From positions 9,507 to 73,506 of the forward strand of contig DASXXV010000079.1 of assembly GCA_036502905.1 (NCBI GenBank): a DNA stretch of 64,000 nucleotides, in the 5' to 3' direction. How positions within the stretch are numbered: position 1 is the stretch's first letter; each line of letters begins with the position of its first letter. The notes beneath the pieces were generated by a model. The model made no database searches. It was not told the DNA's origin and worked only from the letters and a program-made list of their open reading frames with translations. The translations under genes were made by a program, and so were the position numbers. The stretch is from Terracidiphilus sp. (GTDB taxonomy: Bacteria > Acidobacteriota > Terriglobia > Terriglobales > Acidobacteriaceae). Below, in pieces: positions 31,990 to 58,750 of the stretch.

Positions 31990-34900
31990 TCATTGCCCAA
32001 GAATGACAGGCTGGGCGCAGGTCAAACCGGTGAATCCGTCCCCGACGAGCAAATCCGCGCCAGGGCCGGAAAGTTCAAAGGTTGCCATCCGCGACGAACT
32101 GCCTGTTCCGGTTGCGGCACGTCCCTGCAGGGTGAGCGCGTTGTTCAGGATGTAATCCAACCGGTATCCGCCCCCGGTATGGGTGATCTGCGCGCTCCGG
32201 ACCAGTTGGAAGATCGACCATGTGCCCTGCCAGGGCTGGAACCCCTGGCCATCGACGAGAAGCGAGGCGGATTGCGCGTTGGCGCCGTTCCAGGTAAGAG
32301 TCTGGGGAGTAGACCCGGATGGCATTTTCAAGCCGTCCATGACTACCGTGGCGTTGTTGACGCCGTTGCCGGAAATGAAGCGCAAATTGAAGCTAAAAGA
32401 TGCGGATTTTGCGCCGCCCTGGTACAGAGAGGTGCTGAGGTGCGCGGCCCGATTGAAGTACGAAAGGAATTTCTGGTTCACGGGACCAGGCGCAGCGGGG
32501 GCGGCAACGTATTGCGTGCCGGACAGTGCGAGCGTGTCCTTCAGGTCGCCGGCCAAGGCCGTCCAGATTACGCCGGTTCCGGGCGCAAAGACCCTATCGA
32601 CGTCGGACAAGGCAGCCTGCGGCGCATTGACATTGGAAACGAAGGGGAATTTTGAGAGCAGCGGATTGATGTTGTTGCAGATATTCTTACCGGCTCCGTT
32701 GGCGGCCCCCCCTTTTTGGGGCTTGCGGCCATCGACACAGTCGATCGGCTGTTTCAACAGGTTGATCACCAGTTTCTCAACATGGCCGTCCGGATCGACA
32801 TTAAAGCCCTGTTGGACCTGCTGAACGGCGCCGTTTGCCGCTGTGACCTGCACGGAAATCGGTGCGAAATCGACAGGATCCGTGATGACAGGTTTGGTCG
32901 CTGTGGCAAGGTCGATCGCCCCGCCCAGGTTCGACAACGCTGTGATGTAAGTCTTGTTGCCGTCGCCTATAAGGCGATCAGTGGAGTTCGCGTCCACAAA
33001 GGCCTGGGCGGGCTGGAAAACTTTCTTGATCTGCGGGTCATTGACGGCAGTGTTGTGTGAAACCAGGTAAAAGAGTTCCAAAAGTGGCGACGCAGGTTCC
33101 GTCAGTTTCCCGAGGCGCATGGATGCATCTTTCAGGCTGGTGCAGTTCACTACCCGTGCAGAACTAAGATAGGCGCGCCACTCCTTCAGGAAATCGGCGG
33201 AGTACTGCGACCAGAGAGCGCTGCCGCTGACGGCGGAACTCAGTGCCTGCCCGCCTGCATCACCCAGGACCCAGGTTTCCCCGGCGGCGTACTTGTCCGG
33301 ATGCTGAACCGCATTTTGCATAAATGCGAAGCCATCCTTGGAGAAGGCGCCGCGCACAATCTTGGGGTCCACCACGTAGGAAGCGCTTCCGGGGTATTGC
33401 TTGTTGAAGTCGATGGTTTGACCGGCCTTGTCGCCATCCGCCAGCATGGCCTGGTATACGCGCGTCACGCCCAGAAAATTGTGGAGATACGAACGGGTGT
33501 GGTCGCGCGCCACCGAATCCACGGTGATGGAGTAGGGCGGATGGTGCAGCAATTCGTTCCCGTAGAAATCGATCTGCTTCTTGGCCAGGTCCTGCTGTTC
33601 CGGGTTAAGGTCTGTCCGCGATCCGATCCAATACTGAAAAAACGCCGGGGTAAGGAATTTCGGATCGCACTTGTCGGGGTTGCTTGTGGTAACGAGATAC
33701 GCTTTCAGCGGGTTGTAGGCCGCGTTGTAAAGGCTGAAGTCGCTGGCGTTGGCAGGCGCATCAGGCAGGCCGCGCATGCTCGCCAGGAATCCGTTCTGTG
33801 CCGGATTGAGCAGCATGGGCCGGAAGCGATCGAAGTAGACCTTGCGCGCCTCGTCCTCGAGCTTGTCGCCCTGGTAGAGGCCGAACCGGTAACTCAGATG
33901 GGGGCCGTTCTGCCGCCAGTCATCGAGTTGCAGAATGGTCAGGCGCAGATCGTCGAGTGCGCTGAGCTCTTTCGGTCCGGCCATGGAGGTCCCGGTGGCG
34001 TCGGTCACCGGCAGAGCGCGCGCGTCGTCTTGAATGCGGTGCTCGATAGCCGCGTTATTTATGTAGGAAACGATGAGGAAGATGGTGTAGAGCGCAAAGA
34101 GAAACGCCAGGGTCCCGTAGAGAATGCGGCGGAAAAGCCTGGCGGGCGCGCTCTGCCTGGTCGCAGTGAGCGCGCTTCGATCTCCCAGGATCACCTCGGG
34201 CAGCAGGCGGGGCAGGAACGTCCATTGCGGCACGCGCGCCTGGGTCATCACTGGCGCGGGGGCGGCGGCGGGGGCGGCAGCTCTTCCCATGGAGAGGTTG
34301 ATGTACTGGGTGGCGCCGGCATCCTGGGGGGTGTGCCGGGGCTCCGCCGCAGCCGGGGCGCTCACCGCCCGCTCCACGATGCGCGCGCGAATACCGGTGA
34401 AATAGAAGCCGCGCAGGTAGGGATTGGCGCTTAGCTGGGAGGGCTTGCAGAGCTCCACCAGATACTGGTTGAGATTCTTGCGAACCTTGCCGAGCTCGCG
34501 GGGGAACTCGTATACGCCGGAAACATTTCTGGGGTCGTTTTCGCGGTCCAGCATCTCCACCCGGAATTCGCCCAGCTGGTAAACCAGGCCATCGATGATC
34601 CCGGCCAGCAGGCGCGAAGCCTGTTCGGCGTATACGCCCGCGGAGGCATCACTGCGCGGCAACGGCACGCCCAGCACCTGGCGCACTTCGGCGTCGGAAA
34701 GATTGCGCACGTATTCGGCAAAGTGAGGCACGCGATCGAGCTTGGTGACGATCACGTACACCGGCAGAGGCATCCCGAGGATCCGGCTGACCTCGCGTAG
34801 TTGCGCTCCGGTAGCGCGCGCCGAGGCCATGAGCGACTGGCCCGCATCGCCAACGAGGAGCTGGTCCGCGCTCACGCAAACGATGACTGCCCGGGGCGCG

Positions 34901-35460
34901 GCACCGCTGCCGAATGCGGAGCGATAGGCCCGGGCCCGAGTTCGATGGACCAGCCTGCCGAGAAGAGTGTTGTTGGGTCGCACCGAGGCGCCAATCTCGA
35001 GGAGCGCGGCGGCCTTGGTGAACCACAGATTGATTACGTTTGTGGGCACCTGGTCGCCATCGAGCGTCGCCGTTCCGGCCAGCAGTTCGGGATCCAGGCC
35101 GGACTTCAGCACGGTGGTGGTCTTAGCGGAGCCGGAATCGCCAAGAATGTAGAGCAGGGGCAGCGCATCGATCGCTTTGGCTCCCTGTTGAGAGGAGCGC
35201 AGCTTGCGGTTGGCATCGTTGAGCATCAGGTCCAGCTCCGCGGTGGCGGCGGTGCCAGCCTCTTCGCCCTGCTGCCCCTTTTCTTTTTTGGCGCGCAGGT
35301 GCATCACCACGATGGTGATGGCGGCGGCAATGCCGATCAGCAGAACAAGGATGACAAAGACCAGGTACGCCGCACCCTGAAGGTGGAGCAGGGCCGCAAG
35401 GCCGAACGCCAGCAGCGCGGCCACCAGTAGCACGACGACGGCGAGTATGTAGGCAAGCAA
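31990..35460 (-). CDS. tssM: T6SS membrane complex protein TssM/IcmF
   Basis: Two N-terminal TMs, P-loop-like GDSGSAKT, PVYVIVTKLD, LRGFYFTG, third TM, FGLYQG, KFPF, GTWSIFQL; TTG start. Confidence 0.9.
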   Translation of the reverse strand: MLAYILAVVVLLVAALLAFGLAALLHLQGAAYLVFVILVLLIGIAAAITIVVMHLRAKKEKGQQGEEAGTAATAELDLMLNDANRKLRSSQQGAKAIDALPLLYILGDSGSAKTTTVLKSGLDPELLAGTATLDGDQVPTNVINLWFTKAAALLEIGASVRPNNTLLGRLVHRTRARAYRSAFGSGAAPRAVIVCVSADQLLVGDAGQSLMASARATGAQLREVSRILGMPLPVYVIVTKLDRVPHFAEYVRNLSDAEVRQVLGVPLPRSDASAGVYAEQASRLLAGIIDGLVYQLGEFRVEMLDRENDPRNVSGVYEFPRELGKVRKNLNQYLVELCKPSQLSANPYLRGFYFTGIRARIVERAVSAPAAAEPRHTPQDAGATQYINLSMGRAAAPAAAPAPVMTQARVPQWTFLPRLLPEVILGDRSALTATRQSAPARLFRRILYGTLAFLFALYTIFLIVSYINNAAIEHRIQDDARALPVTDATGTSMAGPKELSALDDLRLTILQLDDWRQNGPHLSYRFGLYQGDKLEDEARKVYFDRFRPMLLNPAQNGFLASMRGLPDAPANASDFSLYNAAYNPLKAYLVTTSNPDKCDPKFLTPAFFQYWIGSRTDLNPEQQDLAKKQIDFYGNELLHHPPYSITVDSVARDHTRSYLHNFLGVTRVYQAMLADGDKAGQTIDFNKQYPGSASYVVDPKIVRGAFSKDGFAFMQNAVQHPDKYAAGETWVLGDAGGQALSSAVSGSALWSQYSADFLKEWRAYLSSARVVNCTSLKDASMRLGKLTEPASPLLELFYLVSHNTAVNDPQIKKVFQPAQAFVDANSTDRLIGDGNKTYITALSNLGGAIDLATATKPVITDPVDFAPISVQVTAANGAVQQVQQGFNVDPDGHVEKLVINLLKQPIDCVDGRKPQKGGAANGAGKNICNNINPLLSKFPFVSNVNAPQAALSDVDRVFAPGTGVIWTALAGDLKDTLALSGTQYVAAPAAPGPVNQKFLSYFNRAAHLSTSLYQGGAKSASFSFNLRFISGNGVNNATVVMDGLKMPSGSTPQTLTWNGANAQSASLLVDGQGFQPWQGTWSIFQLVRSAQITHTGGGYRLDYILNNALTLQGRAATGTGSSSRMATFELSGPGADLLVGDGFTGLTCAQPVILGQ

Positions 35461-35575
35461 GGTGTTCCCCCGAAATATCTTTCCTGTCGCATGAGTGCGG
35501 CGCTAAGTATAGCTTCCCAACATGTCTCCAGCCCGCGAAACCTGCGGCACCGGGTGAGTGGATTCCATCATCTCT

Positions 35576-35631: not shown

Positions 35632-36357
35632 CTAGCTGATGTGCGAAGCTCCCGCGCTCAGGGCGAACCAGAATCCGCCGAAGGCCAGGAGCGTGATCAC
35701 GAACAGGACCACGGCCGCGATACCCAGAGCGCGGCTCCAGGGGTCCACGGTGGCAATCTGTTTTACTTGGGGCGCGGGAGCGTCGGGCAAGAAGCTGGCC
35801 TGCCCGCGGACGCGATCGATCTTTTCCCGTGCCTGGCGAACCAGGGTCTGGATCTCTCCGCCGGGGCGCTGGCCCCACTGTCCCCCGTTGCCCTGGCCCG
35901 ACACATACGTACTGGCCGCCAGAGCGTACTTTCCTTTGAAGCCCAGCAGCATGCACAAGCAGTAGACTTCAAGGCAATCGGCCGTTTCCTGGGAGTCCTG
36001 GCGAGCCAGCAGCGTACGCAGATGCTCGAAGAAGATCTCGCCTGCGAGGTGGTGGCCGAACATCTCGTCCTGCATGGGACGCTGCGCCCAATCGGCGAAT
36101 GCCGGGCTCTGCAGCTTGAGGACACTCTCATCGAGAAGCGAGACCACCGCGAAGAAGGCGAGCTGATTGATTTCGCTCGAATAGCCCAGCCCCTTGGCGT
36201 GTTCCATGGCGGCTTTCAGGGCGGCACGGATGCTGGTGCGGAAGTCCTGCGAGTTGGCGGCGGACTGCTGGTTCAGCACCGACAATCGCACGATAATGGT
36301 GAGCGCGTTTTCATAGCAGGACGCAAGGCTCTGCGTGCGCGTTGGAATTTGTGTCAT
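35632..36357 (-). CDS. tssL: T6SS protein TssL/DotU (no OmpA domain)
   Basis: FAVVSLLDESVL, W..RPMQ..MFG…AGEIFF, LEVYCLCMLLGFKGKY, single C-terminal TM. Confidence 0.92.
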   Translation of the reverse strand: MTQIPTRTQSLASCYENALTIIVRLSVLNQQSAANSQDFRTSIRAALKAAMEHAKGLGYSSEINQLAFFAVVSLLDESVLKLQSPAFADWAQRPMQDEMFGHHLAGEIFFEHLRTLLARQDSQETADCLEVYCLCMLLGFKGKYALAASTYVSGQGNGGQWGQRPGGEIQTLVRQAREKIDRVRGQASFLPDAPAPQVKQIATVDPWSRALGIAAVVLFVITLLAFGGFWFALSAGASHIS

Positions 36358-36800: not shown

Positions 36801-38207
36801 ATGAGCAATAAAAATTCCAGTTCGGGGCCGGAGCAGCCCGACCCGCTCAGCGCGACAGGCATGTTCCTGCGCGCCTTCGAGCAAGAAGGAAAGAGCGAGG
36901 CAAAGCCGGCGGATGTATTTCCGCCCCAGCCCGGGAAACCTGCATCGCCGCTCGCGGCCGGGCCGGGAGCGGGAATGCCGTCGAGTGCTTCCGCGCCTCC
37001 GGGCGAGTTCACACAGGTCTTCAGCAGCGCGGCCCAGCGTCCCGCGGCCACTCCGCCGGCCCGGGAGGCTCCGCCCCAGCTTGCTACACAGGTGGTAAGG
37101 GGACCGGCGCAACCATCGCCCGAAGGGGCTCCGGGGGAGTTCACCAGGATTTTCGTCCCGGGAACGCCATCGTATACTCCGCCGGCCCGCCCCTCAGAAG
37201 AATCTCCGCGCCCTGGAACGCCCGCAGGGCCCTCCCGCTCCAAGGGATTTTCCTCACCTGGAGTATCCGATTCGGCTTCTGGCGAAGGAGGTTTGACCCA
37301 GTTCTTCAGCAGTCCCCTCCGGCCCCCTGTACCCGCGCCTTCTCCTGCGCCTGCAACCGCACCGGCTTCGTCGGAGGGAAGTTTCACGCAATTCTTCACC
37401 AGTCCATCGCGCCCCGCGGTGCCGGCGCCTTCTCCCGCACCGGCAGCACCGGCGGCTGCGTCGGAGGGAGGGTTCACGCAGTTCTTCAATGACCCTTCGC
37501 GGCCCGCAGTTTCAGCGCCATCCGCTCCGCCGCCGCCGGCGGACAACTCGTGGAAGGACGACGACCCATTTTTCCGGCCCCCGCAGAAAAGCTCCGTGCC
37601 GGAAGGGCCGTCTCCCAGCGTAACGGGCATTCTTTCCTCCTTGTCAGGATCCGGGGCGGGCACGTCCACGCCCAAAGCGCCGGAGCCTGGACCATATCGG
37701 CCCGATCCACTGTCCTCGTACGCTCCACCCAAGGCCGCCGAAGATCCAGGCGGAGTGACGCAATTGATTCATCGACTGGCTCAGCAGCCGCCCGTTGAGG
37801 CTGCGCAACCAGCGGCGCCGGCCCCTCCGCCTCCGAGTCCGGAGATGGGGGAATTCACCCGCATTATGTCCCGGTTTGACGCGAAGCCGGCCGCAGCAGC
37901 TCCCCCACCGCCGCCGGCGCCGCCCGCGCCCGTGGCGCAGCCATGGGCGGCACCACCACCCATACCGCCGGTGCCTCCGGCACCGCACCTTGTGCAGCCA
38001 CCTTTGCCGCTGCCGCATACTCCTGCGCCGGCACCAGCGCCGGTGTTCGTCGCTCCCCCAATTCCTAAGCCCGCGCCTCCGCCCATGCCGGCGCTCGCAC
38101 CGCCCAAAAGCAAGCTCGAGGCCATGGTGCCGATCTTGCTGGTAATCAACACATTTCTGCTGGTGCTTTTGCTGGTGGTGGTGATCTTCCTGATCAAGGC
38201 GAAGTGA
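36801..38207 (+). CDS. Tail-anchored proline-rich protein with nine Thr-centred motifs, T6SS-associated, function unknown
   Basis: Pro/Ala/Ser-rich, repeated GEFTxxF-like motifs, one C-terminal TM (VPILLVINTFLLVLLLVVVIFLI-KAK), no signal peptide; divergent from tssL. Confidence 0.8.
   Translation: MSNKNSSSGPEQPDPLSATGMFLRAFEQEGKSEAKPADVFPPQPGKPASPLAAGPGAGMPSSASAPPGEFTQVFSSAAQRPAATPPAREAPPQLATQVVRGPAQPSPEGAPGEFTRIFVPGTPSYTPPARPSEESPRPGTPAGPSRSKGFSSPGVSDSASGEGGLTQFFSSPLRPPVPAPSPAPATAPASSEGSFTQFFTSPSRPAVPAPSPAPAAPAAASEGGFTQFFNDPSRPAVSAPSAPPPPADNSWKDDDPFFRPPQKSSVPEGPSPSVTGILSSLSGSGAGTSTPKAPEPGPYRPDPLSSYAPPKAAEDPGGVTQLIHRLAQQPPVEAAQPAAPAPPPPSPEMGEFTRIMSRFDAKPAAAAPPPPPAPPAPVAQPWAAPPPIPPVPPAPHLVQPPLPLPHTPAPAPAPVFVAPPIPKPAPPPMPALAPPKSKLEAMVPILLVINTFLLVLLLVVVIFLIKAK
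37284..37520 (+). repeat. 90-bp (30 aa) internal tandem repeat, about 2.6 copies
   Basis: EGGLTQFFSSP, EGSFTQFFTSP and EGGFTQFFNDP units start at 37284, 37374 and 37464. Confidence 0.85.
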
Positions 38208-38261: not shown

Positions 38262-38543
38262 CTAAGCCAACAGCCCCTTTTCGCGGAGCAGGCTGTCGGG
38301 ACGTTCGAAGCTGTCGATGATGATGACGCCCTGGGAGCGTGCTTTTCCGGCCCAGCGGGTGGCCTCGTCTTCGTTGAATTTCAAGTCCTGGAGCAGTGTC
38401 ACGAGGTCGTCGTAGCTCGCGGCCTGGGCTGGACGGCTATTCGTCCGGCCCGCGTAGGGCTTGAAGGTCACCTCGAAGTGCGCCTTCGTTCCTTCAGAGG
38501 CGGGTTTGGCGGTAATCAGCAGGTTCCCGATGAGCTTGGGCAT
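38262..38543 (-). CDS. Small hypothetical protein (93 aa)
   Basis: GGGGAGGAG RBS before ATG 38543; globular-looking composition. Confidence 0.7.
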   Translation of the reverse strand: MPKLIGNLLITAKPASEGTKAHFEVTFKPYAGRTNSRPAQAASYDDLVTLLQDLKFNEDEATRWAGKARSQGVIIIDSFERPDSLLREKGLLA

Positions 38544-38645: not shown

Positions 38646-40109
38646 CTACGCTGCCACCATGAACCCGCGCTCGAGCAGCTTGCGGATGATGCCCAGACAC
38701 TCCGTCTGAACTGCCTCGACGGGCGCGTTGGCCTGGGCTGAAAACCCCTGGATGGCCTCCTCCGCGGTGCGGTTTCCATCGCACGTGACCAGGAATTCCG
38801 CCACCAGTGGCTGCACGTTCATATGGAACGGAAACCCGCTGACAAGGCGGAGGGTGAGAGCCTCGGCGCGCCATTCGCCCTGGTGCTGGGCGCACACCTG
38901 TTCCAGGCGCACGTTGGGCGCCATGCGCGGCTTTATCGCCAGCAGCTTCTCGTCGCTGTCGATCTGCTGCATCAGGGTATGGGCGGAAAATGTGGACACG
39001 ATCATGTCGCCGAGCTCGCCCTTGGGGGTGCTGGGCACTTCCTCGATCCGTACCCAGTTCCTGCCCTCGCGGCGGCGCATGACGATCAGTCCGTCGTGGA
39101 TGGCCTCCACGCCGCGGTGGCGATAGTAATCCATATACCCGGCGTAAGTAGCCGCGTCCTGAGATGGATCTTCCGATGTCTCCTTGATGCGCTGCTGGGC
39201 GTATTCCTCGGGGTCCTGCGTGAGCCCCTTCATCACCCATGCATCGCAGCCGGTGTCCTGCAGCCATTCGGCCACGCGTTCCTCCCAGGGCTGACCCTTG
39301 ATCTGCGCCCACTCGCACAGCATCTGCATGTAGCCTCCCTCGTTAAGGTGGTCGTGGGCTTCTTTCACCAGGCGCCGGCACAGGCTGTCGAGTTCCATGG
39401 GGTTTTCGCAAAACAGGTAGTCGCCCTGGGGGGTGATGAAGAACGGCGGATTGGAAAGGATGAGGTCGAAGCGTCGGCCGCTTACTGGCGCAAAGCAATC
39501 CCCGGCGAGCGCTTCGATGTTCTCGATACCATTCAGCCGCGCATTGAAGAGGGCGCAATCGACAGCACGCTGGTTCAGGTCTGTGGCCACGACGGCATCG
39601 CTGAACCGGGAGGCGCCCAGGCTCAGGATTCCGCTTCCCGTTCCCAGGTCGAGCGTAGCGCGGGAGTGCTGCCGCACCGCAAAACGGGCCAGGAATTTGC
39701 TGGTAGGGTTGGGCCAAAGAACCATCTCCACCTGCTTGCGGTCGATGGCCGATGCATGGTCCGATGCCACCAGAAATCCGTCGGTGTGGAGCAGCATGGC
39801 GCGGGGCTGGAGATCGTCCCCGTTTTGCCTCAACAGTCCTGACTGCAGCAGGAGGGAGAGAATGTCTCCGGGAATGAGATCTGTCACCCGCTTGCGGCTC
39901 AGGGGAAGCCCCAGCCAGAACCAGCGCAGCAGAGCGTTGATGGTGAGGGTCGCGGCAGTGCGGTCGAGCAGCCGGGCATGGTTGCGCAGGAAACGCGACG
40001 GCAACTCGGCGGCGCCCAGATGTTTGCGCAAATTGGTTTCGTTATAGCCGGCGTCCTCGAACCACGCGCGAAGGCGGTGGGATTCTTCAGCGGAAAGCAG
40101 GTTGAGCAT
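38646..40109 (-). CDS. Class I SAM-dependent N-methyltransferase (NPPF motif) with C-terminal PqqD-like winged-helix domain
   Basis: LDLGTGSG motif I, VATDLN, FDLILSNPPF motif IV; C-terminus …FLVTCDGNRT…IIRKLLERGFM. Confidence 0.8.
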   Translation of the reverse strand: MLNLLSAEESHRLRAWFEDAGYNETNLRKHLGAAELPSRFLRNHARLLDRTAATLTINALLRWFWLGLPLSRKRVTDLIPGDILSLLLQSGLLRQNGDDLQPRAMLLHTDGFLVASDHASAIDRKQVEMVLWPNPTSKFLARFAVRQHSRATLDLGTGSGILSLGASRFSDAVVATDLNQRAVDCALFNARLNGIENIEALAGDCFAPVSGRRFDLILSNPPFFITPQGDYLFCENPMELDSLCRRLVKEAHDHLNEGGYMQMLCEWAQIKGQPWEERVAEWLQDTGCDAWVMKGLTQDPEEYAQQRIKETSEDPSQDAATYAGYMDYYRHRGVEAIHDGLIVMRRREGRNWVRIEEVPSTPKGELGDMIVSTFSAHTLMQQIDSDEKLLAIKPRMAPNVRLEQVCAQHQGEWRAEALTLRLVSGFPFHMNVQPLVAEFLVTCDGNRTAEEAIQGFSAQANAPVEAVQTECLGIIRKLLERGFMVAA

Positions 40110-40564: not shown

Positions 40565-41083
40565 ATGGCTAAACAGAGTGCGCAGCATAAACTTGACCGG
40601 GTGCGTCCTCCCCGGGTGCAGATTACCTATGACGTCGAAGTCGGTGGCGCCATCGAGATCAAGGAATTGCCGTTCGTCGTGGGCGTGCTGGGAGACTTCA
40701 CCGGCAATCCGGAGCAGCCCCTGCCCAAGCTCAAGGAACGCAAGTTCGTCGAAGTAAATCCCGACAATTTTGACACCGTTCTGGAAGGCATGAAACCGCA
40801 CCTTTCCTTCTCGGTTGAAAACAAGTTGAGCGACGATCCCAACGCCGCGAATCTGAAGGTCGATTTAAAATTTCGCAAATTTGACGATTTTGAGCCGGCA
40901 AATGTCGCTAAACAGGTTAAGCCCCTGAAGGAGCTTCTGGACCTGCGCACGCGCCTGTCAGATTTGCGCGGTTCGCTGCAGGGCAACGACAAGCTCGAAG
41001 AGCTCCTGCTCGAGGCGGTGGGCAACACCGAAAAGCTGGACAAGTTGAAGGGCGAGATCGGCCCAGGAGGGTCCAATGCCTGA
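40565..41083 (+). CDS. tssB: T6SS contractile sheath small subunit
   Basis: RVRPPRVQITYDVE…ELPFVVGVLGDF, DDFEP…V..LKELLDLR. Confidence 0.97.
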   Translation: MAKQSAQHKLDRVRPPRVQITYDVEVGGAIEIKELPFVVGVLGDFTGNPEQPLPKLKERKFVEVNPDNFDTVLEGMKPHLSFSVENKLSDDPNAANLKVDLKFRKFDDFEPANVAKQVKPLKELLDLRTRLSDLRGSLQGNDKLEELLLEAVGNTEKLDKLKGEIGPGGSNA

Positions 41084-49566: not shown

Positions 49567-52329
49567 ATGGGACTGAACCTGAAAGCTCTAATCGGAAAGT
49601 TGAATGACCAGGCCCGCGCCGCCCTGGAAGGCGCTGCCGGCCTTTGCCTATCCCGTACCCACTACGACATTGAAGTGGAGCACTTCATCAGCAAGCTTCT
49701 GGATTCGTCCTCCAATGATTTCGCGTGCATCATCAAGCACTTCGAAATTGACAAGTCCCGTCTCACCGCCGAGCTGACGCGCAGCCTGGACAAGTTGAAA
49801 TCGGGCAATGCGCGCACTCCGGCGATCAGCCCGACGGTCATGAAGATGCTGACCACCGCGTGGACCATCGGATCCATCGATTTCAACGCGGGATCGGTGC
49901 GCACCGGGTTCATCATTCTCGCGCTGGCCTCCGATGAAGACCTTTCGCGGCTGATGCGCGAAGTGAGCAGCCGGGAATTTCCGAAGATCAATGCCGATGC
50001 GCTGAAGAAGGATCTCCTGGCCATTTGCGCGCTCTCCCAGGAGACCACCGCCAGCGGGGCGGCAATCGGCGCCGCTGCCGGTGCGTCGGGTGAGGGTGCG
50101 AAACCACTCGGCGGCAAGACGCCCAATCTTGACTCCTACACGGTTGACCTGACGGGCAACGCGAAGCGGGGCAAGATCGACCCGGTGCTTGGCCGCGACC
50201 CGGAGATCCGCCAGGTGATAGATATTCTCACCCGCCGGCGGCAGAACAATCCGATCCTTACCGGCGAAGCGGGCGTGGGCAAGACCGCGGTGGTGGAGGG
50301 CTTCGCGCTGCGGGTTGCGAATGGCGATGTGCCGCCGCCCCTCAAGAACGTCACCATCCGCACGCTCGACCTGGCCCTGCTGCAGGCCGGGGCGGGCGTC
50401 AAGGGTGAGTTCGAGAACCGGCTCAAGGGCCTCATCGAAGAAGTGAAGAATTCTCCCACTCCCATCATTCTGTTCATTGACGAGGCGCACACCATGATCG
50501 GCGCCGGCGGGCAGGCGGGACAGGGCGATGCCGCCAACCTGCTGAAGCCGGCGCTGGCGCGCGGCGAGCTCCGCACCATCGCTGCGACCACGTGGTCTGA
50601 ATACAAGAAGTACTTCGAGAAGGATGCGGCGCTGGCCAGGCGCTTCCAGGTCGTCAAGGTGGAAGAGCCGAGCGAGCCGCAATGCATGATCATGATGCGC
50701 GGCCTGGTCGCCTCCCTGGAGAAGCACCACAATGTGCGCATCCTCGACGAGGCGGTGTTCGCGGGAGTGAAGCTCACCCATCGTTATCTGGCGGGACGCC
50801 AGTTGCCCGACAAGGCGGTAAGCATTCTCGATACGGCTTGCGCGCGCCTGGCGCTGGGGCAGAATACTACGCCGCCTGCCATTGAAGACCTGCACCGCGA
50901 GATCGACGCGCTGGAGGTGCAGACGCGCATTCTAAATCGGGAGGAAAGCGTGGGCGCCGATCACCAGGAGAAGCTGGCCGAGATCGCCGCCCAGAGGGAG
51001 AAGGCGCAGACCCGGCTGGCCGCGCTCGAGGGCCGCTGGGACAAGGAAAAAGAGCTGGTCGGGAAGATCCGGGAACTGCGGAGCAAGCTGGAGAATGTGG
51101 GCAAGCCCGCGCCCCCGCCGGCTGCGGACGCAGCTGCCGCAACCATGCCGGCCGGCAGCCCTGTCCAACAGAATGGCCATGCGGCTGCAGCCGAAGCACC
51201 TGCGACTCCTGAAGATACCAAGGCGCAGTTGCAGGCTCTGGAAGCCGAGTTGTCCGCTCTGCAGGGTGAGACCGGCCTTATCCGGGTTTGTGTCGATGCG
51301 CAGATCGTGGGCGAGGTCCTGTCTGCGTGGACAGGCATTCCGGCCGGCAAGATGCTCAAAGATGAGATCACCACGGTGCTGGCGCTGAAGGACCATCTGG
51401 CCAGGCGCGTCATCGGCCAGGATCATGCGATGGAGATCATCTCGCAGCGTGTGCAGACTTCGCGCGCCTCGCTCGATGATCCCAACAAGCCGGTGGGCGT
51501 CTTTATGCTCGTGGGTCCCAGCGGCGTGGGCAAGACGGAGACGGCGCTGGCGCTGTCCGACCTGCTCTATGGCGGCGAGCACAACCTGATCACCATCAAC
51601 ATGTCGGAGTTCCAGGAGCCGCATACGGTGTCCACGCTGAAAGGCTCGCCGCCCGGATATGTGGGGTACGGCGAGGGCGGAGTGCTGACCGAGGCTGTTC
51701 GCCGGCGGCCCTACTCCTGCGTGCTGCTGGATGAGGTCGAGAAAGCCCATCCCGACGTCCTGGAGCTCTTTTTCCAGGTGTTCGACAAAGGCCAGATGGA
51801 AGACGGTGAAGGACGCGAGATCAATTTCAAGAACAACATCATCATCCTCACCACCAACGCCTGCACGGACGAGATGATGAAGCTGGTGGCCGATCCGGAG
51901 ACCGCGCCCGGGCCGCGCGCGCTGGTTGAGGCCCTGAAGCCTGGATTGAACAAGATCTTCAAGCCGGCGTTTCTGGGACGCATGGTTATCATCCCCTATT
52001 TCCCGGTACGCGATGAGGCGCTGAAGCAGATTATTCGCCTTAAACTGGGCAAGATTCAGCGCCGGCTGCAGGAAAACCACAAGATCAAACTCACCTACGA
52101 CGATGCCTTCCTGGAAGCGGTGGCGGCGCGATGCACCGAGGTGGAGAGCGGCGCGCGCAACGTCGACAACATCCTTACCAACTCGCTGTTACCCGACATA
52201 TCGCGCAAGATCCTGGGCAGCATGGCGGAAGGAGAGAAGATGAGCGCCATCCATGTAAGCATGGGCGAGAACGGGGAATTCAGCTACGGCGACCCGGCCG
52301 CCGCGCTGGTGGAAGAGACAGTGTCGTAG
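49567..52329 (+). CDS. tssH: T6SS AAA+ ATPase ClpV
   Basis: LIGKLN…[27 protein letters not shown], second Walker [25 protein letters not shown]. Confidence 0.97.
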
Positions 52330-52478: not shown

Positions 52479-54629
52479 ATGGCACTGTACACACAAGCCG
52501 GACGTCTCATTTCATTGAAGACTCCGCTGGGCGAGGATAAGCTGCTGCTCACCGGCTTCACCGGCCAGGAAGCGATTTCGCGCCTGTTCCATTTCCATCT
52601 CACCACGCTGTCTGAAGACACGGCCATCGATTTCACCCAGATCGTCGGCCAGAACGTTACCGTCAATGTGAACAAGGCTGATGATTCGCAGCGATATTTC
52701 AATGGCATCGTCAGCCACTTCGCGTGCACCGGCAAAGAAGGCGATATGGTGCGGTACGAGTTGCAGGTGGTGCCGAACCTGTGGACGCTCTCGCGCTATG
52801 CTGACTGCCGGATCTATCACAACAAGGACGTCACCGAGATCGTGAAGGCGGTGCTTGACGAACGGAGTATTGAATACCAGGCTTCGTTTACCGCGGGATA
52901 TAACAAGCTCGAGTACTGCGTGCAGTATCGCGAGACGGATCTCAATTTTATCTCCCGGCTGATGGAGCATTTCGGAATCTTCTACTTCTTCAAGCACGAG
53001 GACAGCTCGCACACCATGATGCTGGGCGACTCAACCAGCGCGCACCAGGAGTGCCCGGGGCAGAGCAGCGCCAGTTTCAACCTGGCCGGGGGCGGCCTTG
53101 ATGCCGGCGACGTAGTCAACGCATGGAGCATCGGGCAGGAGCTGCGCAGCGGAAAGCATTCGCTGACTGACTATAACTTCACCACCTCAACGACCGATCT
53201 GCTGTCTCAGGAATCCACGATCTACACGGTGGCGAACAACGCCGGCATGGAAATCTTCGATTATCCCGGTCCGCATCTCACCACGTCGGACGGATCGGTG
53301 CTTGCCAAGCTGCGCATGGAGGAGGACGAGGCCGTCCACAAGATCGCTCGCGGAGGGAGCGTATGCCGATGCTTCACCACGGGCTACAAGTTTGACCTGC
53401 AGGAGCATCCGCTGGATGCGATGAACGCTACCTATCTTCTGACCGAAATCCAGCACGTTGCGACCGTTGCCGGCACGTACCGCGATGACGCCGGCGTGGG
53501 GTCGGCGGTAGCCGCGGCCGCTGCGGCGGCCGGGGGAGAGGACACTTACTCGAATCATTTCACCTGCATTCCTTCGGACGTTCCATTCCGGCCGGCGCGG
53601 GTGACGCCCAAGCCCTTCGTGCAAGGTCCGCAGACCGCCACCGTCGTGGGCAAGGGCGACGACAAGGACTCTGACGACGATCAGGAAGCGGGCGGCGACG
53701 GCGAGGAGATCTGGGTAGACAAATTTGGCCGCGTCCTGGTGCACTTCCCATGGGATCGCGGGAGAGACATGTCGTGCTGGATGCGGGTCTCGCAGGACTG
53801 GGCCGGGCAGGGCTGGGGCATGATCAATATCCCGCGCGTGGGCCAGGAGGTGATCGTCAGCTTTCTGGAAGGCGACCCGGACCGGCCCATCATCACCGGG
53901 CGGGTGTACAACGACGTTCAGACGGTGCCCTACAGCCTGCCCGAAAACGGCACGCGCACCACCCTCCGGACCTCCACGTCCACCGGGGGCGGCACGGCGC
54001 ACTATAACGAGCTCCGGTTCGAGGATAAGCAGGGCAGTGAACAGGTGTTCGTCCGCGGCGAAAAAGACTACGACACCCGAATTGTGAACGACTCGCGCGA
54101 GTGGATTGGGAATAATCGCAGCCTGATGGTGGTCAAGGACCAGATGGAGAAGGTCAGCGGAGACCTTCACCTGCAGGTGGAAGGAAAAAAATTCGAGAAG
54201 GTAACCAAGGAAGCCCACCTCACGGTGGAGGACAAAACATTCGAGAAGTTCAACGCCGACTTCAATCAACATGTGCAGACTAACTGGAATCACAAGTCCG
54301 ACCAGAATGTTTCCATCCAGGCCGGGCAGAACATGTATGAGAAGTCGGGCATGAACTACGCCCACGAAGCGGGAATGGAGATTCACCTGAAGGCGGGCAT
54401 GACAATGGTGCTGGAGGCCGGCGTACAGCTCTCGCTGAAGGTGGGGGGCAGCTTTGTGGATATCGGACCGGCGGGCGTCTCGATCTCCGGGCCGATGGTG
54501 ATGATCAACAGCGGCGGCGCGGCAGGCTCCGGAAGCGGCTCAAGCCCGACCAGCCCGACCGATGCCCAAGCTCCCAAGGACCCGGACGAAGCCGACGACG
54601 GCAGCAAGGGAACCAAAATGAACGGCTAG
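52479..54629 (+). CDS. vgrG: T6SS spike protein VgrG (no C-terminal effector extension)
   Basis: EAISRLF, YCVQYRETDLNFISRLME..GIFYFF, GPQTATVVG, PRVGQEVIVSFLEGDPDRPIITGRVYN, NELRFEDK. Confidence 0.96.
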   Translation: MALYTQAGRLISLKTPLGEDKLLLTGFTGQEAISRLFHFHLTTLSEDTAIDFTQIVGQNVTVNVNKADDSQRYFNGIVSHFACTGKEGDMVRYELQVVPNLWTLSRYADCRIYHNKDVTEIVKAVLDERSIEYQASFTAGYNKLEYCVQYRETDLNFISRLMEHFGIFYFFKHEDSSHTMMLGDSTSAHQECPGQSSASFNLAGGGLDAGDVVNAWSIGQELRSGKHSLTDYNFTTSTTDLLSQESTIYTVANNAGMEIFDYPGPHLTTSDGSVLAKLRMEEDEAVHKIARGGSVCRCFTTGYKFDLQEHPLDAMNATYLLTEIQHVATVAGTYRDDAGVGSAVAAAAAAAGGEDTYSNHFTCIPSDVPFRPARVTPKPFVQGPQTATVVGKGDDKDSDDDQEAGGDGEEIWVDKFGRVLVHFPWDRGRDMSCWMRVSQDWAGQGWGMINIPRVGQEVIVSFLEGDPDRPIITGRVYNDVQTVPYSLPENGTRTTLRTSTSTGGGTAHYNELRFEDKQGSEQVFVRGEKDYDTRIVNDSREWIGNNRSLMVVKDQMEKVSGDLHLQVEGKKFEKVTKEAHLTVEDKTFEKFNADFNQHVQTNWNHKSDQNVSIQAGQNMYEKSGMNYAHEAGMEIHLKAGMTMVLEAGVQLSLKVGGSFVDIGPAGVSISGPMVMINSGGAAGSGSGSSPTSPTDAQAPKDPDEADDGSKGTKMNG

Positions 54630-54782: not shown

Positions 54783-56153
54783 ATGAAACAATTACAGCCC
54801 GTTCTTTGGAGCAAAGGCACCTTTCTGACGCCCCAGCATATGCAGCTCCAGGACAAGTTCCTGGAAGACAGCATGAACTTCCGCGTGCAATCGCTGAAGT
54901 TCTGCGCGTGGGGTTTCAACGAAGTCGTGCTCGACCAGGAACTGCTGGCGGACGGGCAGCTGGCCGTTTCCCGCGCTTCCGGCATCTTTCCCGATGGACT
55001 GCTGTTTGATATTCCCGGTCCGGACCAGCCGCCGCCCTCCAAGGCCATCGCCGAGTACTTCGATCAGGATGTAAAGAGCCTGGACTTCTACCTGACCGTC
55101 CCCGACTACAAAGACAAGGGCTTGAATGTCGCCGGCCTGGGGCGCACCGCGAGTTCCCGCTACCTGGCGGAGATCGCCAGCGTGCGCGACGACAACACCG
55201 GCCAGGGCGAAAAGCCGATTCAGATTGCGCGCAAGAATCTGCGCATCCTGGCGGAGAACGAGACGCGCGAAGGAAGCTCGGCGCTGCGCATTGCCAATGT
55301 CGCGAAGACCGACACCGGCGGATTCCAGCTGAATCCCCGCTTCGTTCCGCCGCTGCTTGAAGTCCGCGCCAGCGATTACGTCCGCAATCTCGTCAACGGG
55401 ATTCTCGAACTTCTTTCCGCCAAAAGCACGCAGCTCTCGGGAACCCGCCGCGAAAAGAACCAGAGCCTGGCCGACTTCACCACCATGGATATCGCCGATT
55501 TTTGGCTCCTTTACACGGTCAATTCCAGCATCCCGGTGCTGAATCACCTGCTCCAGGGTCAGCGCTGCCATCCCGAAGACCTTTTTTCGACGCTCACCGG
55601 GCTCGGCGCATCGCTCACCACGTTTCACCCCACCATCCGCCCGCGCGACCTCCCGCCTTACGATCATGCGGAACTGGGCGACGTATTTCGCGAGCTCGAT
55701 CAAAAACTGCGCATCCTGATTGACACCAGCATTCCGCGCAATGCGGTTTCGCTGCCCCTCAAGCAGGTGAACAGCACTATTTATGCCGCCGCCCTGGACC
55801 ATGACAAGTACCTGGTGAACACCCGCATGTACCTCGCGATTGCCGCCGACGCCAGCAAGGACACCATCATTCGGCGCGTGCCCCAGCTCGTGAAGGTTTG
55901 CTCCGCGACGCACATTGATCAGTTGGTGAACTCGGCCCTGCCGGGCATGGTGCTCACTCACGTTCCCAGCCCGCCCAGCGCCATTCCCATCAAGATGAAG
56001 TACCAGTACTTCAGCCTGACGCAGAGCGGCGCAGCCTGGGACACGGTGCCGCGCGCGCGCAACTTTGCCGCATACGTGCCGGCCGATATCGCCAATCCGC
56101 AGATGGAGTTGGTGATCCTGCTCCCCCAGGCGCAGACAGGCGAATCGCTATGA
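54783..56153 (+). CDS. tssK: T6SS baseplate subunit TssK, paralogue 1
   Basis: VLWSKGTFLTPQHMQLQD, GIFPDG, FVPPLL, HPEDLF, YDH, NSALPG. Confidence 0.93.
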   Translation: MKQLQPVLWSKGTFLTPQHMQLQDKFLEDSMNFRVQSLKFCAWGFNEVVLDQELLADGQLAVSRASGIFPDGLLFDIPGPDQPPPSKAIAEYFDQDVKSLDFYLTVPDYKDKGLNVAGLGRTASSRYLAEIASVRDDNTGQGEKPIQIARKNLRILAENETREGSSALRIANVAKTDTGGFQLNPRFVPPLLEVRASDYVRNLVNGILELLSAKSTQLSGTRREKNQSLADFTTMDIADFWLLYTVNSSIPVLNHLLQGQRCHPEDLFSTLTGLGASLTTFHPTIRPRDLPPYDHAELGDVFRELDQKLRILIDTSIPRNAVSLPLKQVNSTIYAAALDHDKYLVNTRMYLAIAADASKDTIIRRVPQLVKVCSATHIDQLVNSALPGMVLTHVPSPPSAIPIKMKYQYFSLTQSGAAWDTVPRARNFAAYVPADIANPQMELVILLPQAQTGESL

Positions 56154-57502
56154 GATCGCTCACCAGACCGGTGTGGTGGGAGGGCATGTACCTGGGGCCG
56201 CATCATTTCCAGGCCCAGAACCGCTATTTCGAGGATGCGCTCAACTTCGTCACCGCCAGCCTGTGGCGCGATGCGTGCGGATTTGCCGGACTGCAGTTCG
56301 ATGCCGACGCGCTGCGCAACGGCACCCTGGTATTGACGCATGCGCGCGGGCTCTTCGCGGACGGGCTGGCCTTCGATCTGCCCGATTCCGACCCGCCCCC
56401 CGCGCCTAAAGCGTTCGCGGCGCTGTTCTCTCCGGTGGCCGATCATCTCGACCTGTTTCTCGCGGTTCCCGCGGTGGTGCGCGACGGACAAAACACTACT
56501 CTGAATGGAACCGTCAATGGAACCCGGTATGTCGCCACGGATCAGAATCTCGCCGACCAGAACACCGGGCTCGACGAAAAGGCCATCAAAGTCGGGCGCA
56601 AAAACCTCCAGATCCTCGCCGAGTCCGAGCTGTCGGAGCGCTACGTGCATTTGCCAGTCGTACGGCTCATGCGCGACGGCACGGGCCGATTCGAAGCCGA
56701 TCCCACCTTTGTTCCGCCGTGCATCAACATCAGCGCCATCCCCGCGCTCACCGGCATGCTGCGCCGGTTGCTCGACATCCTCGACGAGAAAAGCACCGTG
56801 TTCACGCAGGAACAGGAACAGCGCAATGGCGTCTTCCAGGCGGGCATGTCGCCCCGCAACGTGGCGCAGTTCTGGTTTCTGCACGCGCTGAATTCGAGCA
56901 TTCCCACCCTGCGGCACTTGCTGCTCTGCCAGCACGCGCATCCGCAGGATCTGTTCCGGGAGATGTCGCGGCTGGCAGGTGCGCTGTGCACCTTCGTGCT
57001 CGACGTGCATCCCCGCTCCCTGCCGCAGTACGACCACTGGAATCTCGGCAAGTGTTTTGCCGAACTCGACGAGCAACTTCGCCGGCTTCTGGAAATTGTG
57101 ATTCCACAGAAGGCCATCAAGATCCCCCTGCGCGCGGTGGAGAGCTTCCTGTACAACGGCGACGTCAAGGACGAGCGCTGCCTCGGCCCGGGACGCTGGA
57201 TTCTCGAGATCCAGTCGCCCATCGGCGAAGCCGACCTGATCGCCAATGTTCCCCGGCTCACCAAGGTGTGCTCGGCGCGCTTCGTGGTAGAGCTGATCAA
57301 GCGCGCGCTGCCCGGCCTGTTGCTGACCCATCTTCCGGTTCCGCCGGTGCAGATCATGGCGCGCGTGGAGAGCCATTACTTTTCGATTCAGCGCACCGGG
57401 CCTTGCTGGGAGCACATTGTGCAGACCCGCCAGGTGGGCGTCTATGTCCCGGCCGAGATTCCGACTCCGCAGCTCGGCCTGATCGTGCTGCTCGACGAGT
57501 AA
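56150..57502 (+). CDS. tssK: T6SS baseplate subunit TssK, paralogue 2
   Basis: VWWEGMYLGPHHFQAQ, GLFADG, FVPPC, HPQDLF, YDH, ALPGL; ATGA overlap with paralogue 1. Confidence 0.93.
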   Translation: MRSLTRPVWWEGMYLGPHHFQAQNRYFEDALNFVTASLWRDACGFAGLQFDADALRNGTLVLTHARGLFADGLAFDLPDSDPPPAPKAFAALFSPVADHLDLFLAVPAVVRDGQNTTLNGTVNGTRYVATDQNLADQNTGLDEKAIKVGRKNLQILAESELSERYVHLPVVRLMRDGTGRFEADPTFVPPCINISAIPALTGMLRRLLDILDEKSTVFTQEQEQRNGVFQAGMSPRNVAQFWFLHALNSSIPTLRHLLLCQHAHPQDLFREMSRLAGALCTFVLDVHPRSLPQYDHWNLGKCFAELDEQLRRLLEIVIPQKAIKIPLRAVESFLYNGDVKDERCLGPGRWILEIQSPIGEADLIANVPRLTKVCSARFVVELIKRALPGLLLTHLPVPPVQIMARVESHYFSIQRTGPCWEHIVQTRQVGVYVPAEIPTPQLGLIVLLDE

Positions 57503-57592
57503 CACCGCGGGCCGGCGCATCCAGCCTCTACAATTGACCTTATCGCCGGAGCTTCCGGCCATGATTCCCGCACGCCGCAGGGTTTAGCGAAG

Positions 57593-58750
57593 ATGGCATT
57601 CCAACCAGGCCAGAGGATCGGCGATTACGATGTCGTGGCAAAGCTGGGCGCCGGCGGTCTGGGCGAGGTGTACGAGGTGCAACACCTCATCTCGCAGCGG
57701 CGCGAAGCCATGAAGATCCTGCTACCCGACCAGGGCTCTCCTGACATGGTCGAACGCTTCCGGCGGGAAGTGCAAACGCTGGCTACGCTCAACCACATCC
57801 ATATCGCCCAGCTGCACACCGCGTTTTACTTCGAAAACCAGCTCGCCATGATCATGGAGCTGGTCCACGGGGAAACCCTGCGCGATCTGCGCCTGCGCAT
57901 GGCCATTTCTCTGTCCCAGGCATTGGAGTATATGGCGCAGACGCTGAACGCCCTGGCCTACGCGCACCGCCTGGGGGTGGTTCACCGCGATATCAAGCCG
58001 TCCAACATCATGATCACCGAGGGCGGATTCGTGAAACTGCTGGACTTCGGTATCGCGCTGACCGGGCACGGCACTGAATTGACACGCGCCGGCTACCTGC
58101 TGGGTTCACTCAATTACATGTCCCCCGAGCAGGTGGGAGGAAGCAAGGCCACGTCGCGTTCGGACCTCTACTCAGTTGGGGTAACGCTGTATGAGCTGCT
58201 CACCGGGTCGCTGCCTATCAAGGGCGCGAACAATTACGAGATCATGATGGGGCACATCAACCAGGTTCCCGTGCCGCCACACCAGCTTGACCCGCAAGTG
58301 CCGATCGCCGTTTCTGAAGCCGTATTGCGCGCCCTGAGCAAGGATCCGGCGCAGCGATTCGGCAGCGCGGAAGAATTCCTTGATGCGCTCCGGCTCACTC
58401 CCGCAACCAGCGAGGAGGGACACACCTACGCTGCGCCGCTGCCGGTTCCGCCGATGGCGAGCGCTCGCATTCCGGCGCCTCCGGTCCCGCTCCCGATTCC
58501 TTCACCGTCGCACACGCAAATGGCCGCGCACCCGGTCCAGACCAAGTCGGGCTCCTCGAGCGGATTCCAGAATCTTTCCCTTGAGGAGATCAGTCGCAAG
58601 TTGGCCGTCTATATCGGGCCGGTGGCCAAGTTCGTGGTGAAGAAACTGGCCGCGCAGTCAGAGGATCTCGACTTCATTTACCGCGAAGCCGCGAAGCAGA
58701 TTCCGTCGGACTCGGACCGGGCCGCCTTCCTGAAGGCGCGGCGCCAATAG
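57593..58750 (+). CDS. Hanks-type Ser/Thr protein kinase, soluble, with Pro-rich linker and small C-terminal helical domain
   Basis: GAGGLGEVY, AMK, HRDIKPSN, DFG, YMSPEQ, SDLYSVG; no TM segment. Confidence 0.92.
   Translation: MAFQPGQRIGDYDVVAKLGAGGLGEVYEVQHLISQRREAMKILLPDQGSPDMVERFRREVQTLATLNHIHIAQLHTAFYFENQLAMIMELVHGETLRDLRLRMAISLSQALEYMAQTLNALAYAHRLGVVHRDIKPSNIMITEGGFVKLLDFGIALTGHGTELTRAGYLLGSLNYMSPEQVGGSKATSRSDLYSVGVTLYELLTGSLPIKGANNYEIMMGHINQVPVPPHQLDPQVPIAVSEAVLRALSKDPAQRFGSAEEFLDALRLTPATSEEGHTYAAPLPVPPMASARIPAPPVPLPIPSPSHTQMAAHPVQTKSGSSSGFQNLSLEEISRKLAVYIGPVAKFVVKKLAAQSEDLDFIYREAAKQIPSDSDRAAFLKARRQ

What the first reader, a model, noticed from the sequence alone, without database searches (positions are those of the whole stretch)
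31990..58750. Atypical split T6SS locus with no recognisable TssJ, PAAR, Fha or phosphatase
Seen: tssM and tssL on the minus strand, then tssB, tssC, hcp, tagJ, tssA, tssE, tssF, tssG, clpV, vgrG, tssK, tssK and a kinase on the plus strand, separated by three unassigned genes. Both borders are inside the window (ABC exporter left, TPR/TonB genes right), so the absences hold for this locus. No lipoprotein resembling TssJ is present and TssL has no OmpA domain. Established: canonical T6SS-i membrane complexes use TssJ-TssL-TssM. Inference: a lineage-specific T6SS subtype with a different outer-membrane anchoring solution, in a group where I know of little functional T6SS work.
Basis: partly seen in the sequence, partly recalled or inferred. 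Interest (0 to 1): 0.78.

Follow-up and report, generated by a model that had tools for sequence, protein, structure and literature searches.

The report
Soil-bacterial injector lacking its outer anchor

Summary
All 13 gene calls are confirmed. TssJ was not detected in this genome (89% complete; Pfam and a custom profile) or in 62 of 62 T6SS-positive relatives searched, while the same search found it in 8 of 33 T6SS-positive genomes of a phylum-wide sample. The PAAR and phosphatase absences are only local. A PAAR-like DUF4280 gene and a PP2C gene lie on contig C71, in a block that directly abuts tssM in the three closest relatives. TssC groups with the Granulicella and Gemmatirosa systems already assigned to subtype i4b. 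The TssM C-terminal domain has the canonical fold (Z 19.5 to EAEC TssM), so this is not a new subtype, and TssJ loss has a precedent in Acinetobacter. The new part is the three 'unassigned' genes, which are conserved members of the locus: a tail-anchored proline-rich protein with GEFT(R/Q)hF repeats, a 93-aa protein with a weak ClpS-like fold, and a PrmC-like methyltransferase. The locus also has two TssK paralogues and a recurrently linked exported 920-aa TPR protein. How the outer membrane is crossed stays inferred. Verdict: new variant of a known kind.

The parts
31990..35460 (-). tssM, 1156 aa, three TM helices; C-terminal domain with canonical fold, no fused TssJ
   Evidence: PF14331/PF06761, TIGR03348 E 3.6e-94, below its cut-off; TM scan; model of residues 781-1156 pLDDT 92.7, Z 19.5, rmsd 3.0 over 220 residues to 4y7o
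35632..36357 (-). tssL, short form without OmpA domain (open frame extends to 36423)
   Evidence: PF09850 E 1e-38, no OmpA hit; likely ATG
36801..38207 (+). lineage-specific proline-rich protein (468 aa, 25% Pro), seven G-x-[FLV]-T-[RQ]-h-h repeats and a C-terminal TM helix with conserved Pro/Asn; conserved T6SS-locus gene
38262..38543 (-). 93-aa cytoplasmic protein confined to this T6SS branch; weak ClpS-like fold
   Evidence: 60 of 66 loci; model pLDDT 95; best folds ClpS, Z 4.6, Foldseek E about 0.3; distribution
38646..40109 (-). SAM-dependent PrmC/HemK-like methyltransferase (DUF7059-MTS-DUF7782; DLGTGSG and NPPF motifs), conserved next to tssB
   Evidence: 59 of 66 loci
40565..41083 (+). 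tssB
   Evidence: TIGR03358
41076..42554 (+). tssC
   Evidence: TIGR03355; trees
42987..43466 (+). hcp
   Evidence: PF05638, TIGR03344
43460..44215 (+). tagJ
   Evidence: PF07024
44246..46075 (+). tssA (ImpA_N + VasJ domains)
46079..46579 (+). tssE
   Evidence: TIGR03357
46569..48413 (+). tssF
   Evidence: TIGR03359
48377..49501 (+). tssG
   Evidence: TIGR03347; likely start
49567..52329 (+). clpV/tssH
   Evidence: TIGR03345; likely start
52479..54629 (+). vgrG, the only copy found in the genome, no C-terminal effector domain
   Evidence: TIGR03361; C-terminus read
54783..56153 (+). tssK paralogue 1
   Evidence: TIGR03353; likely start
56150..57502 (+). tssK paralogue 2
   Evidence: TIGR03353
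57593..58750 (+). cytoplasmic Ser/Thr kinase (385 aa, no TM helix); orthologues lie in relatives' T6SS loci
   Evidence: PF00069; TM scan

Best explanation
This is a T6SS-i of the Terriglobia/Gemmatirosa branch placed in i4b, with no detectable TssJ across the lineage, so TssM and a short TssL likely build the envelope channel without a lipoprotein, as proposed for Acinetobacter, and the sheath likely fires an Hcp tube tipped by VgrG and the DUF4280 PAAR-like protein encoded on a relocated block. Shown: gene content, conservation, relocation of the DUF4280/PP2C block, canonical TssM fold, and absence of TssJ by profile searches. Inferred: the tail-anchored proline-rich protein is an inner-membrane scaffold that would tie the two-TssK baseplate to TssL/TssM through its threonine-centred repeats. 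Those repeats would be the targets of the locus kinase and PP2C in place of an Fha protein. The 93-aa ClpS-like protein and the methyltransferase would act on sheath recycling or on T6SS subunits.
For: Core families all hit. TssJ: 0 of 1 own, 0 of 12 and 0 of 50 T6SS-positive relatives over cut-off, against 8 of 33 in the phylum sample; the custom profile finds a held-out TssJ at E 6e-17 but nothing here. Conserved order DUF4280>PP2C><tssM<tssL PR><s93<MTase tssB>...; in three closest relatives the C71 block abuts tssM. The TssM model aligns over residues 914-1154 to EAEC 869-1107. TssC clade with Granulicella and Gemmatirosa, SH-aLRT 99; these two were assigned to i4b (PMC9113992). Acinetobacter precedent: its TssM domain alone permeabilised the E. 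coli outer membrane (PMC10564176 passage). PR protein: TM helix at 445-463, 3-11 repeats in 48 orthologues, found between the two tssK genes in six family-level relatives; the strict repeat occurs more than once in no other frame of this genome. Both kinases lack TM helices.
Against: No expression, secretion or interaction data. The Acinetobacter GS-linker pattern is absent from this TssM. An extended C-terminal hairpin that might replace TssJ is short in TssJ-less G431 and G304 and long in TssJ-positive G474, so it is not diagnostic. The roles of PR, s93 and the methyltransferase are inferred from gene context and motifs only; threonine is built into the repeat pattern I searched with. s93 and the methyltransferase were not seen in the loci read from one sub-branch (G059, G057, G026, G431, Granulicella plasmid), so they cannot be essential for all. 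The genome is 89% complete and most relatives are MAGs. No effector gene lies in the locus and no Rhs core was found.
Confidence: 0.55

Rival explanations
1. An exported ring-forming protein replaces TssJ: the 920-aa signal-peptide TPR protein on C71 (7732-10494, minus), whose features resemble CsgG-family proteins, or in other members a plain CsgG-family protein, anchors TssM to the outer membrane or forms the exit pore.
For: Homologue in 31 of 50 T6SS-positive relatives. 21 of those 31 lie within 35 kb of tssB, at two different positions (8 on the tssM side, 13 on the vgrG side). Family sample: 4 of 12 T6SS-positive against 8 of 138 T6SS-negative genomes. Plain CsgG genes lie beside the locus in 5 of 19 T6SS-positive genomes that carry one. 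ESM Atlas lists CsgG and TPR-CsgG clusters at 0.85-0.86, a lead only.
Against: Not found in 19 of 50 T6SS-positive relatives, including the isolate Acidicapsa dinghuensis, and present in 8 T6SS-negative genomes. G059 (98% complete) has neither gene, though its vgrG is in pieces. CsgG likeness has no sequence support. In the loci read, the gene lies beside the 887-aa kinase, so it may be a sensor of a signalling module. Kin are not independent.
Confidence: 0.2
2. A highly divergent TssJ exists elsewhere in these genomes, or on unassembled DNA here, and the membrane complex is ordinary TssJLM.
For: TssJ is among the fastest-evolving core genes (PMC2660368 passage). The genome is 89% complete. 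No structure-based genome-wide screen of lipoproteins was possible. Kandolo et al. found no TssJ in 27.5% of non-Acinetobacter T6SS genomes by their search, which may include detection failures.
Against: None over cut-off in 63 genomes, several 97-100% complete. The same searches detect TssJ in other Acidobacteriota clades and a held-out TssJ. A lipobox pattern scan of the genes called in relatives' loci returned only one, unrelated, hit; the scan is crude and missed a non-conserved lipoprotein-like gene in G154.
Confidence: 0.12
3. The system does not secrete across the outer membrane in the usual way, or is decaying in this genome; the split of the locus is a step of that decay.
For: One vgrG without effector domain and no effector gene in the locus, no Rhs core. 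Patchy distribution: 12 of 150 family genomes. Several relatives' loci show genes in pieces, though these may be assembly errors.
Against: All 18 genes in the window are intact reading frames. Accessory genes are well conserved (median 58-82% identity). An orphan DUF4123 effector-chaperone gene lies at the end of contig C228. Relatives carry PAAR, DUF4123 and further genes behind vgrG.
Confidence: 0.13

Closest known systems
T6SS-i subtype i4b, Acidobacteriaceae/Gemmatimonadaceae branch (Granulicella tundricola pACIX901; PMC9113992, passages seen)
   Same: TssC 73% identical, same SH-99 clade, same layout with PP2C, tssM, tssL, two tssK and a proline-rich gene, no tssJ annotated
   Different: In the passages I saw the paper classifies by TssB and does not remark on TssJ or the accessory genes. 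This genome adds s93 and the methyltransferase, uses DUF4280, and has the locus split.
Acinetobacter non-canonical membrane complex (TsmK, TssM GS-linker, no TssJ; PMC10564176, passages seen)
   Same: TssJ absent across a lineage; TssM and TssL retained; lineage-specific inner-membrane accessory protein
   Different: No GS-linker pattern in this TssM; no locus gene hits a ketoacyl-synthase family; the accessory set is different (PR, s93, methyltransferase, two TssK).
Solibacter usitatus T6SS (listed in PMC2660368 and PMC4239648, passages seen)
   Same: Acidobacterial T6SS with TagJ. Forster et al. note it as the exception combining TagJ with an LLDEII-type TssC motif; this TssC has SSLLDQIV. 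Solibacteraceae loci L128/L137 share tssM-tssL-tssK-PR-tssK-MTase-tssB.
   Different: I saw no remark on TssJ loss or these accessory genes in the passages read; figures and supplements were not seen.
Pseudomonas aeruginosa H1-T6SS threonine phosphorylation pathway (PpkA, PppA, Fha1; PMC2660368 and PMC13584744 passages, otherwise recalled)
   Same: Ser/Thr kinase and PP2C phosphatase linked to the T6SS; TagJ; similar tssB-to-vgrG order (order recalled)
   Different: Both kinases lack a TM helix; no T6SS-linked FHA gene in this genome; TssC does not group with presumed i3 references (p-AU 0.008).

Membership tests
T6SS-i | Sheath, tube, baseplate, ATPase, spike: TssA, B, C, Hcp, E, F, G, K, ClpV, VgrG | tested here: met
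T6SS-i | Inner-membrane TssL and TssM with canonical periplasmic C-terminal domain | tested here: met
   (Z 19.5, rmsd 3.0, 220 residues)
T6SS-i (canonical TssJLM complex) | TssJ lipoprotein | tested here: not met
   No match in own genome or over cut-off in 12 + 50 relatives; positive control 8 of 33. Sequence profiles only; genome 89% complete.
T6SS-i | PAAR or PAAR-like spike tip | tested here: met
   DUF4280, E 7.7e-33, on C71; in-locus in 42 of 66 relatives; DUF4280 as PAAR-like from PMC5014421
T6SS-i | Hcp/VgrG secretion | not testable with these tools
   needs culture
subtype i4b | Sheath phylogeny groups with i4b references | tested here: met
   TssC in one clade (SH-aLRT 99) with the Granulicella and Gemmatirosa systems called i4b in PMC9113992, inside a larger group (96) with Ralstonia. 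Quick trees, TssC not TssB, branch order inside the group open.
Acinetobacter-type TssJ-less complex | [quoted passage not shown] | tested here: not met
   Absent here; 33 of 107 aligned homologues match the pattern
Acinetobacter-type TssJ-less complex | TsmK pseudo-ketoacyl synthase | tested here: inconclusive
   No locus gene hits such a family; no TsmK profile was searched genome-wide
Acinetobacter-type TssJ-less complex | TslA, TagX | not tested
   no search run
H1-type threonine phosphorylation pathway | Membrane-spanning PpkA kinase | tested here: not met
   No TM helix in the 385-aa or 887-aa kinase
H1-type threonine phosphorylation pathway | PppA-like PP2C phosphatase | tested here: met
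   PF00481 on C71; in-locus in 44 of 66 relatives
H1-type threonine phosphorylation pathway | T6SS-linked Fha | tested here: not met
   One FHA gene in the genome, on C103, no T6SS neighbours. Single relatives carry FHA-SLT or FHA-DUF4123 genes at the locus.
ClpS adaptors (for the 93-aa protein) | ClpS fold and binding to a Clp N-domain | tested here: inconclusive
   Top fold hits are ClpS in both searches but weak: Z 4.6, rmsd 2.9, 62 residues; Foldseek E about 0.3. Binding not tested.
CsgG family (for the 920-aa protein) | CsgG domain | tested here: inconclusive
   Atlas feature score 0.85-0.86; no Pfam, PDB-sequence or hhalign support; not folded

The most novel reading that the evidence does not exclude
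A widespread soil-Acidobacteria T6SS branch has replaced TssJ with a CsgG-like exported ring protein and replaced Fha with a tail-anchored, multiply phosphorylated repeat scaffold that docks a two-TssK baseplate, with a ClpS-like ClpV adaptor and a dedicated protein methyltransferase as further control layers: a new membrane-complex and regulatory architecture within T6SS-i.
Probability: 0.2. Interest if true: 0.8.

Novelty: new variant of a known kind. Interest (0 to 1): 0.52.

Why it matters
How a T6SS membrane complex reaches and crosses the outer membrane without TssJ is open even in Acinetobacter (PMC10564176). This is a further lineage-wide case, in abundant soil bacteria, with a different accessory set, and cultured carriers exist (Acidicapsa dinghuensis, Acidobacteria bacterium AB60, Granulicella tundricola). 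It yields four concrete candidate T6SS accessory proteins. I found no paper on them in the searches run: open-access library only. A 2026 review of T6SS accessory factors has no occurrence of 'Acidobacter' or 'proline-rich' in its main text.

Tried and rejected
Complex prediction of the TssM C-terminal domain with the 920-aa protein's C-terminal domain gave 'no answer' (score 0.00); it is not evidence either way. No RNA holder was listed for the locus; this says nothing on expression. Classic PAAR (PF05488) and Tox-PAAR (PF13665) searches gave nothing over cut-off in the own genome. The idea that an extended TssM hairpin (about residues 1107-1124) replaces TssJ was weakened by controls. Misassembly as the cause of the split was considered: one contig of run X3 spans 31500-32617 across the ABC-exporter|tssM junction; that run may be the source sample or the same campaign. 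No repeat shared by the two junctions was found. The ABC gene was found in only 1 of 5 relatives, so breakpoints could not be reconstructed. The ESM Atlas gave no usable hit for s93. CsgG homology of the 920-aa protein was not confirmed by sequence. A lipoprotein-like gene after tssK2 in G154 has no homologue in this genome or the other loci. OmpA-domain lipoproteins near the loci of G284 and G436 belong to other T6SS clades. The careful tree did not finish; both trees are quick trees. The paper search for PDB 9N4V, the best TssC match, found nothing.
Full report
OBSERVATION. The ORF list and family scans confirm every gene call between 31990 and 58750. TssL has a DotU domain and one C-terminal TM helix but no OmpA domain, TssM has three TM helices, and the two TssK copies share 171 of 450 aligned columns. 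The three unassigned genes are a 468-aa proline-rich protein (PR), a 93-aa protein (s93) and a 487-aa PrmC/HemK-like methyltransferase. The window is G000:C79; the genome is 88.96% complete. Its closest tssB relatives are Acidobacteriaceae such as Terracidiphilus, Acidicapsa dinghuensis and strain AB60.

WHICH ABSENCES HOLD. TssJ: no PF12790 match at E<=1 in the genome. A profile built from 10 TssJ sequences (8 from this phylum, plus Ralstonia and Cronobacter) gave best E 1.2 on all six frames, while it found a held-out TssJ at E 6e-17. None over cut-off in 12 of 12 T6SS-positive family genomes (4 weak hits, E 0.33-0.59), nor in 50 of 50 genomes behind the tssB loci (50 of the 80 loci given; one weak hit, E 0.026). 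As a control, 8 of the 33 T6SS-positive genomes in a 300-genome phylum sample had TssJ over cut-off; the four of these placed in the tree fall outside this clade. PAAR: no PF05488 or PF13665 over cut-off, but a DUF4280 gene at C71:4439-4828 (E 7.7e-33); DUF4280 is described as PAAR-like (PMC5014421, passages). Next to it lie a PP2C gene, an 887-aa kinase with TPR-like repeats and a 920-aa protein with an N-terminal signal-peptide-like stretch, read by eye. FHA: one gene, on C103, with no T6SS neighbours.

THE LOCUS IS SPLIT BY A REARRANGEMENT. Among 66 of 80 related loci with at least 9 kb upstream of tssB, DUF4280 was present in 42 and PP2C in 44, converging on tssM. In G151, G152 and G154 the whole block (920-aa gene, kinase, DUF4280, PP2C) directly abuts tssM. 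Here the block lies beside aspS on C71 and continues on C20 with the neighbours it has in G151. One contig of another public run bridges the ABC-exporter|tssM junction, which argues against misassembly, though that run may not be independent. The functional gene set is therefore larger than the window shows.

THE UNASSIGNED GENES BELONG TO THE SYSTEM. In those 66 loci the methyltransferase was found in 59 and s93 in 60. PR was found in 48 by its tail (one hit at E 0.67 is doubtful) and in 52 by an internal motif. In more distant relatives PR lies between the two tssK genes on the opposite strand (G059, G057, G062, G026, G027, G144, G431, Granulicella pACIX901). PR has seven repeats here and 3-11 in 48 orthologues, consensus PG(E/S/G)FT(R/Q)hF, then a TM helix with conserved Pro and Asn and a basic C-terminus. 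This suggests a tail-anchored protein facing the cytoplasm (inference). s93 is a narrow family of 20 clusters at 50% identity; in the phylum sample it was found in 1 of 300 other genomes, weakly. Its model (pLDDT 95) matches ClpS best in two fold searches, but weakly (Z 4.6; Foldseek E about 0.3). The methyltransferase was found in 4 of 12 T6SS-positive and 2 of 138 T6SS-negative family genomes (kin not independent). s93 and the methyltransferase were not seen in the loci read from the G059/G057/G026/G431/Granulicella sub-branch.

TSSM AND THE OUTER MEMBRANE. A profile of 107 TssM sequences aligns collinearly with EAEC TssM from the third TM helix to EAEC residue 1071 (E 1.5e-43). The model of residues 781-1156 (pLDDT 92.7) superposes on EAEC 869-1107 with Z 19.5, rmsd 3.0 over 220 residues. 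There is no fused TssJ or extra domain. The Acinetobacter GS-linker pattern is absent here (33 of 107 homologues match it). A Thr/Val-rich hairpin extension near residues 1107-1124 is conserved in close homologues, but it is short in two TssJ-less systems and long in one TssJ-positive system. The 920-aa protein is the main candidate partner. It was found in 31 of 50 T6SS-positive relatives, 21 of them within 35 kb of tssB at two different positions, and in 4 of 12 T6SS-positive against 8 of 138 T6SS-negative family genomes. The Atlas places CsgG clusters near it at 0.85-0.86, a lead only, without sequence support. Plain CsgG genes flank the locus in 5 of 19 T6SS-positive genomes that have one, and occur in 4 of 11 T6SS-negative genomes. 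Against an essential role, 19 of 50 T6SS-positive genomes gave no hit, including the isolate A. dinghuensis.

PHYLOGENY. In quick TssC trees of 49 and 30 rows (Cronobacter and redundant rows left out of the second), this system sits in a Terriglobia plus Gemmatirosa clade (SH-aLRT 99), inside a larger group (96 in the second tree) with Ralstonia, Azospirillum and Rahnella/E. coli plasmid systems. Holding it together with presumed i3 references is rejected (p-AU 0.008). PMC9113992 classed the Acidobacteriaceae and Gemmatimonadaceae plasmid systems as one clade in a branch of i4b (passages). Subtype labels of my other references were not checked individually.

MECHANISM. Most likely (0.55): a working contractile T6SS. 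TssA-primed TssB/C sheath and Hcp tube, VgrG capped by DUF4280, TagJ/ClpV recycling (established T6SS biology), docked on a TssL-TssM complex that reaches the outer membrane without TssJ. Support for the last step is by analogy: in Acinetobacter, none of 893 complete operons had TssJ and the TssM domain alone permeabilised the E. coli outer membrane (PMC10564176, passages). PR would be the lineage's compensating inner-membrane scaffold and the kinase/PP2C target; both kinases are cytoplasmic and no T6SS-linked Fha exists here. These roles are inferred. Rivals: an exported CsgG-like anchor (0.2), an undetected TssJ (0.12), a non-secreting or decaying system (0.13). Cargo is unknown: one vgrG without effector domain, no Rhs core, one orphan DUF4123 chaperone gene at a contig end.

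NOVELTY. Acidobacterial T6SS loci have been listed since 2009 (PMC2660368; PMC4239648), and TssJ-less systems are known: the Acinetobacter paper found 27.5% of non-Acinetobacter T6SS genomes without TssJ, TsmK or GS-linker. Searches for papers joining Acidobacteria with TssJ, CsgG with TssJ, two tssK with a methyltransferase, or ClpS-like with ClpV gave nothing on this system (listings, open-access library only). Of all papers I saw passages only; figures and supplements were not seen and could show the TssJ gap for Solibacter or Granulicella. Verdict: new variant of a known kind, interest 0.52.

Noticed in passing
G000:C228:7924-8935 (+): Orphan DUF4123 effector-chaperone gene at the contig end, preceded by a 176-aa gene; a cargo gene may follow on another contig
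   Followed up: partly
window 41076-41150: TssC N-terminus has SSLLDQIV, an LLDEII-like motif, together with TagJ; Forster et al. 2014 call this combination an exception seen in Solibacter
   Followed up: no
L201:14331-15755 (G247): A different methyltransferase (PF10119 + PKMT winged helix) sits between tssE and tssF in a TssJ-less T6SS of another family, so methyltransferases recur in these loci
   Followed up: no
L041:14474-16048, L194:11403-12812: FHA-lytic transglycosylase (SLT) fusion genes next to TssJ-less T6SS genes in G087 and G304
   Followed up: no
L026:7359-8234, L035:11740-12657, L207:11367-12242; own C20:5012-5902: A Tll0287-like/HAMP membrane sensor gene recurs beside the T6SS kinase or the relocated block
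   Followed up: no
L033:15245-16975: The PR orthologue in G062 carries an N-terminal stretch that looks like a degenerate kinase N-lobe, read by eye
   Followed up: no
L030:17207-18751: A TssB-TssC fusion gene upstream of the normal tssB/tssC pair in G016
   Followed up: no
L197:5383-6174, L191:15974-16801: OmpA-domain lipoproteins beside T6SS loci of two other TssJ-less Acidobacteriota clades
   Followed up: no
G000:C71:10693-11321 and C20:5962-6255: A roughly 400-aa membrane protein gene divergent from the 920-aa gene is split across two contig ends, so C71 and C20 are likely adjacent
   Followed up: partly
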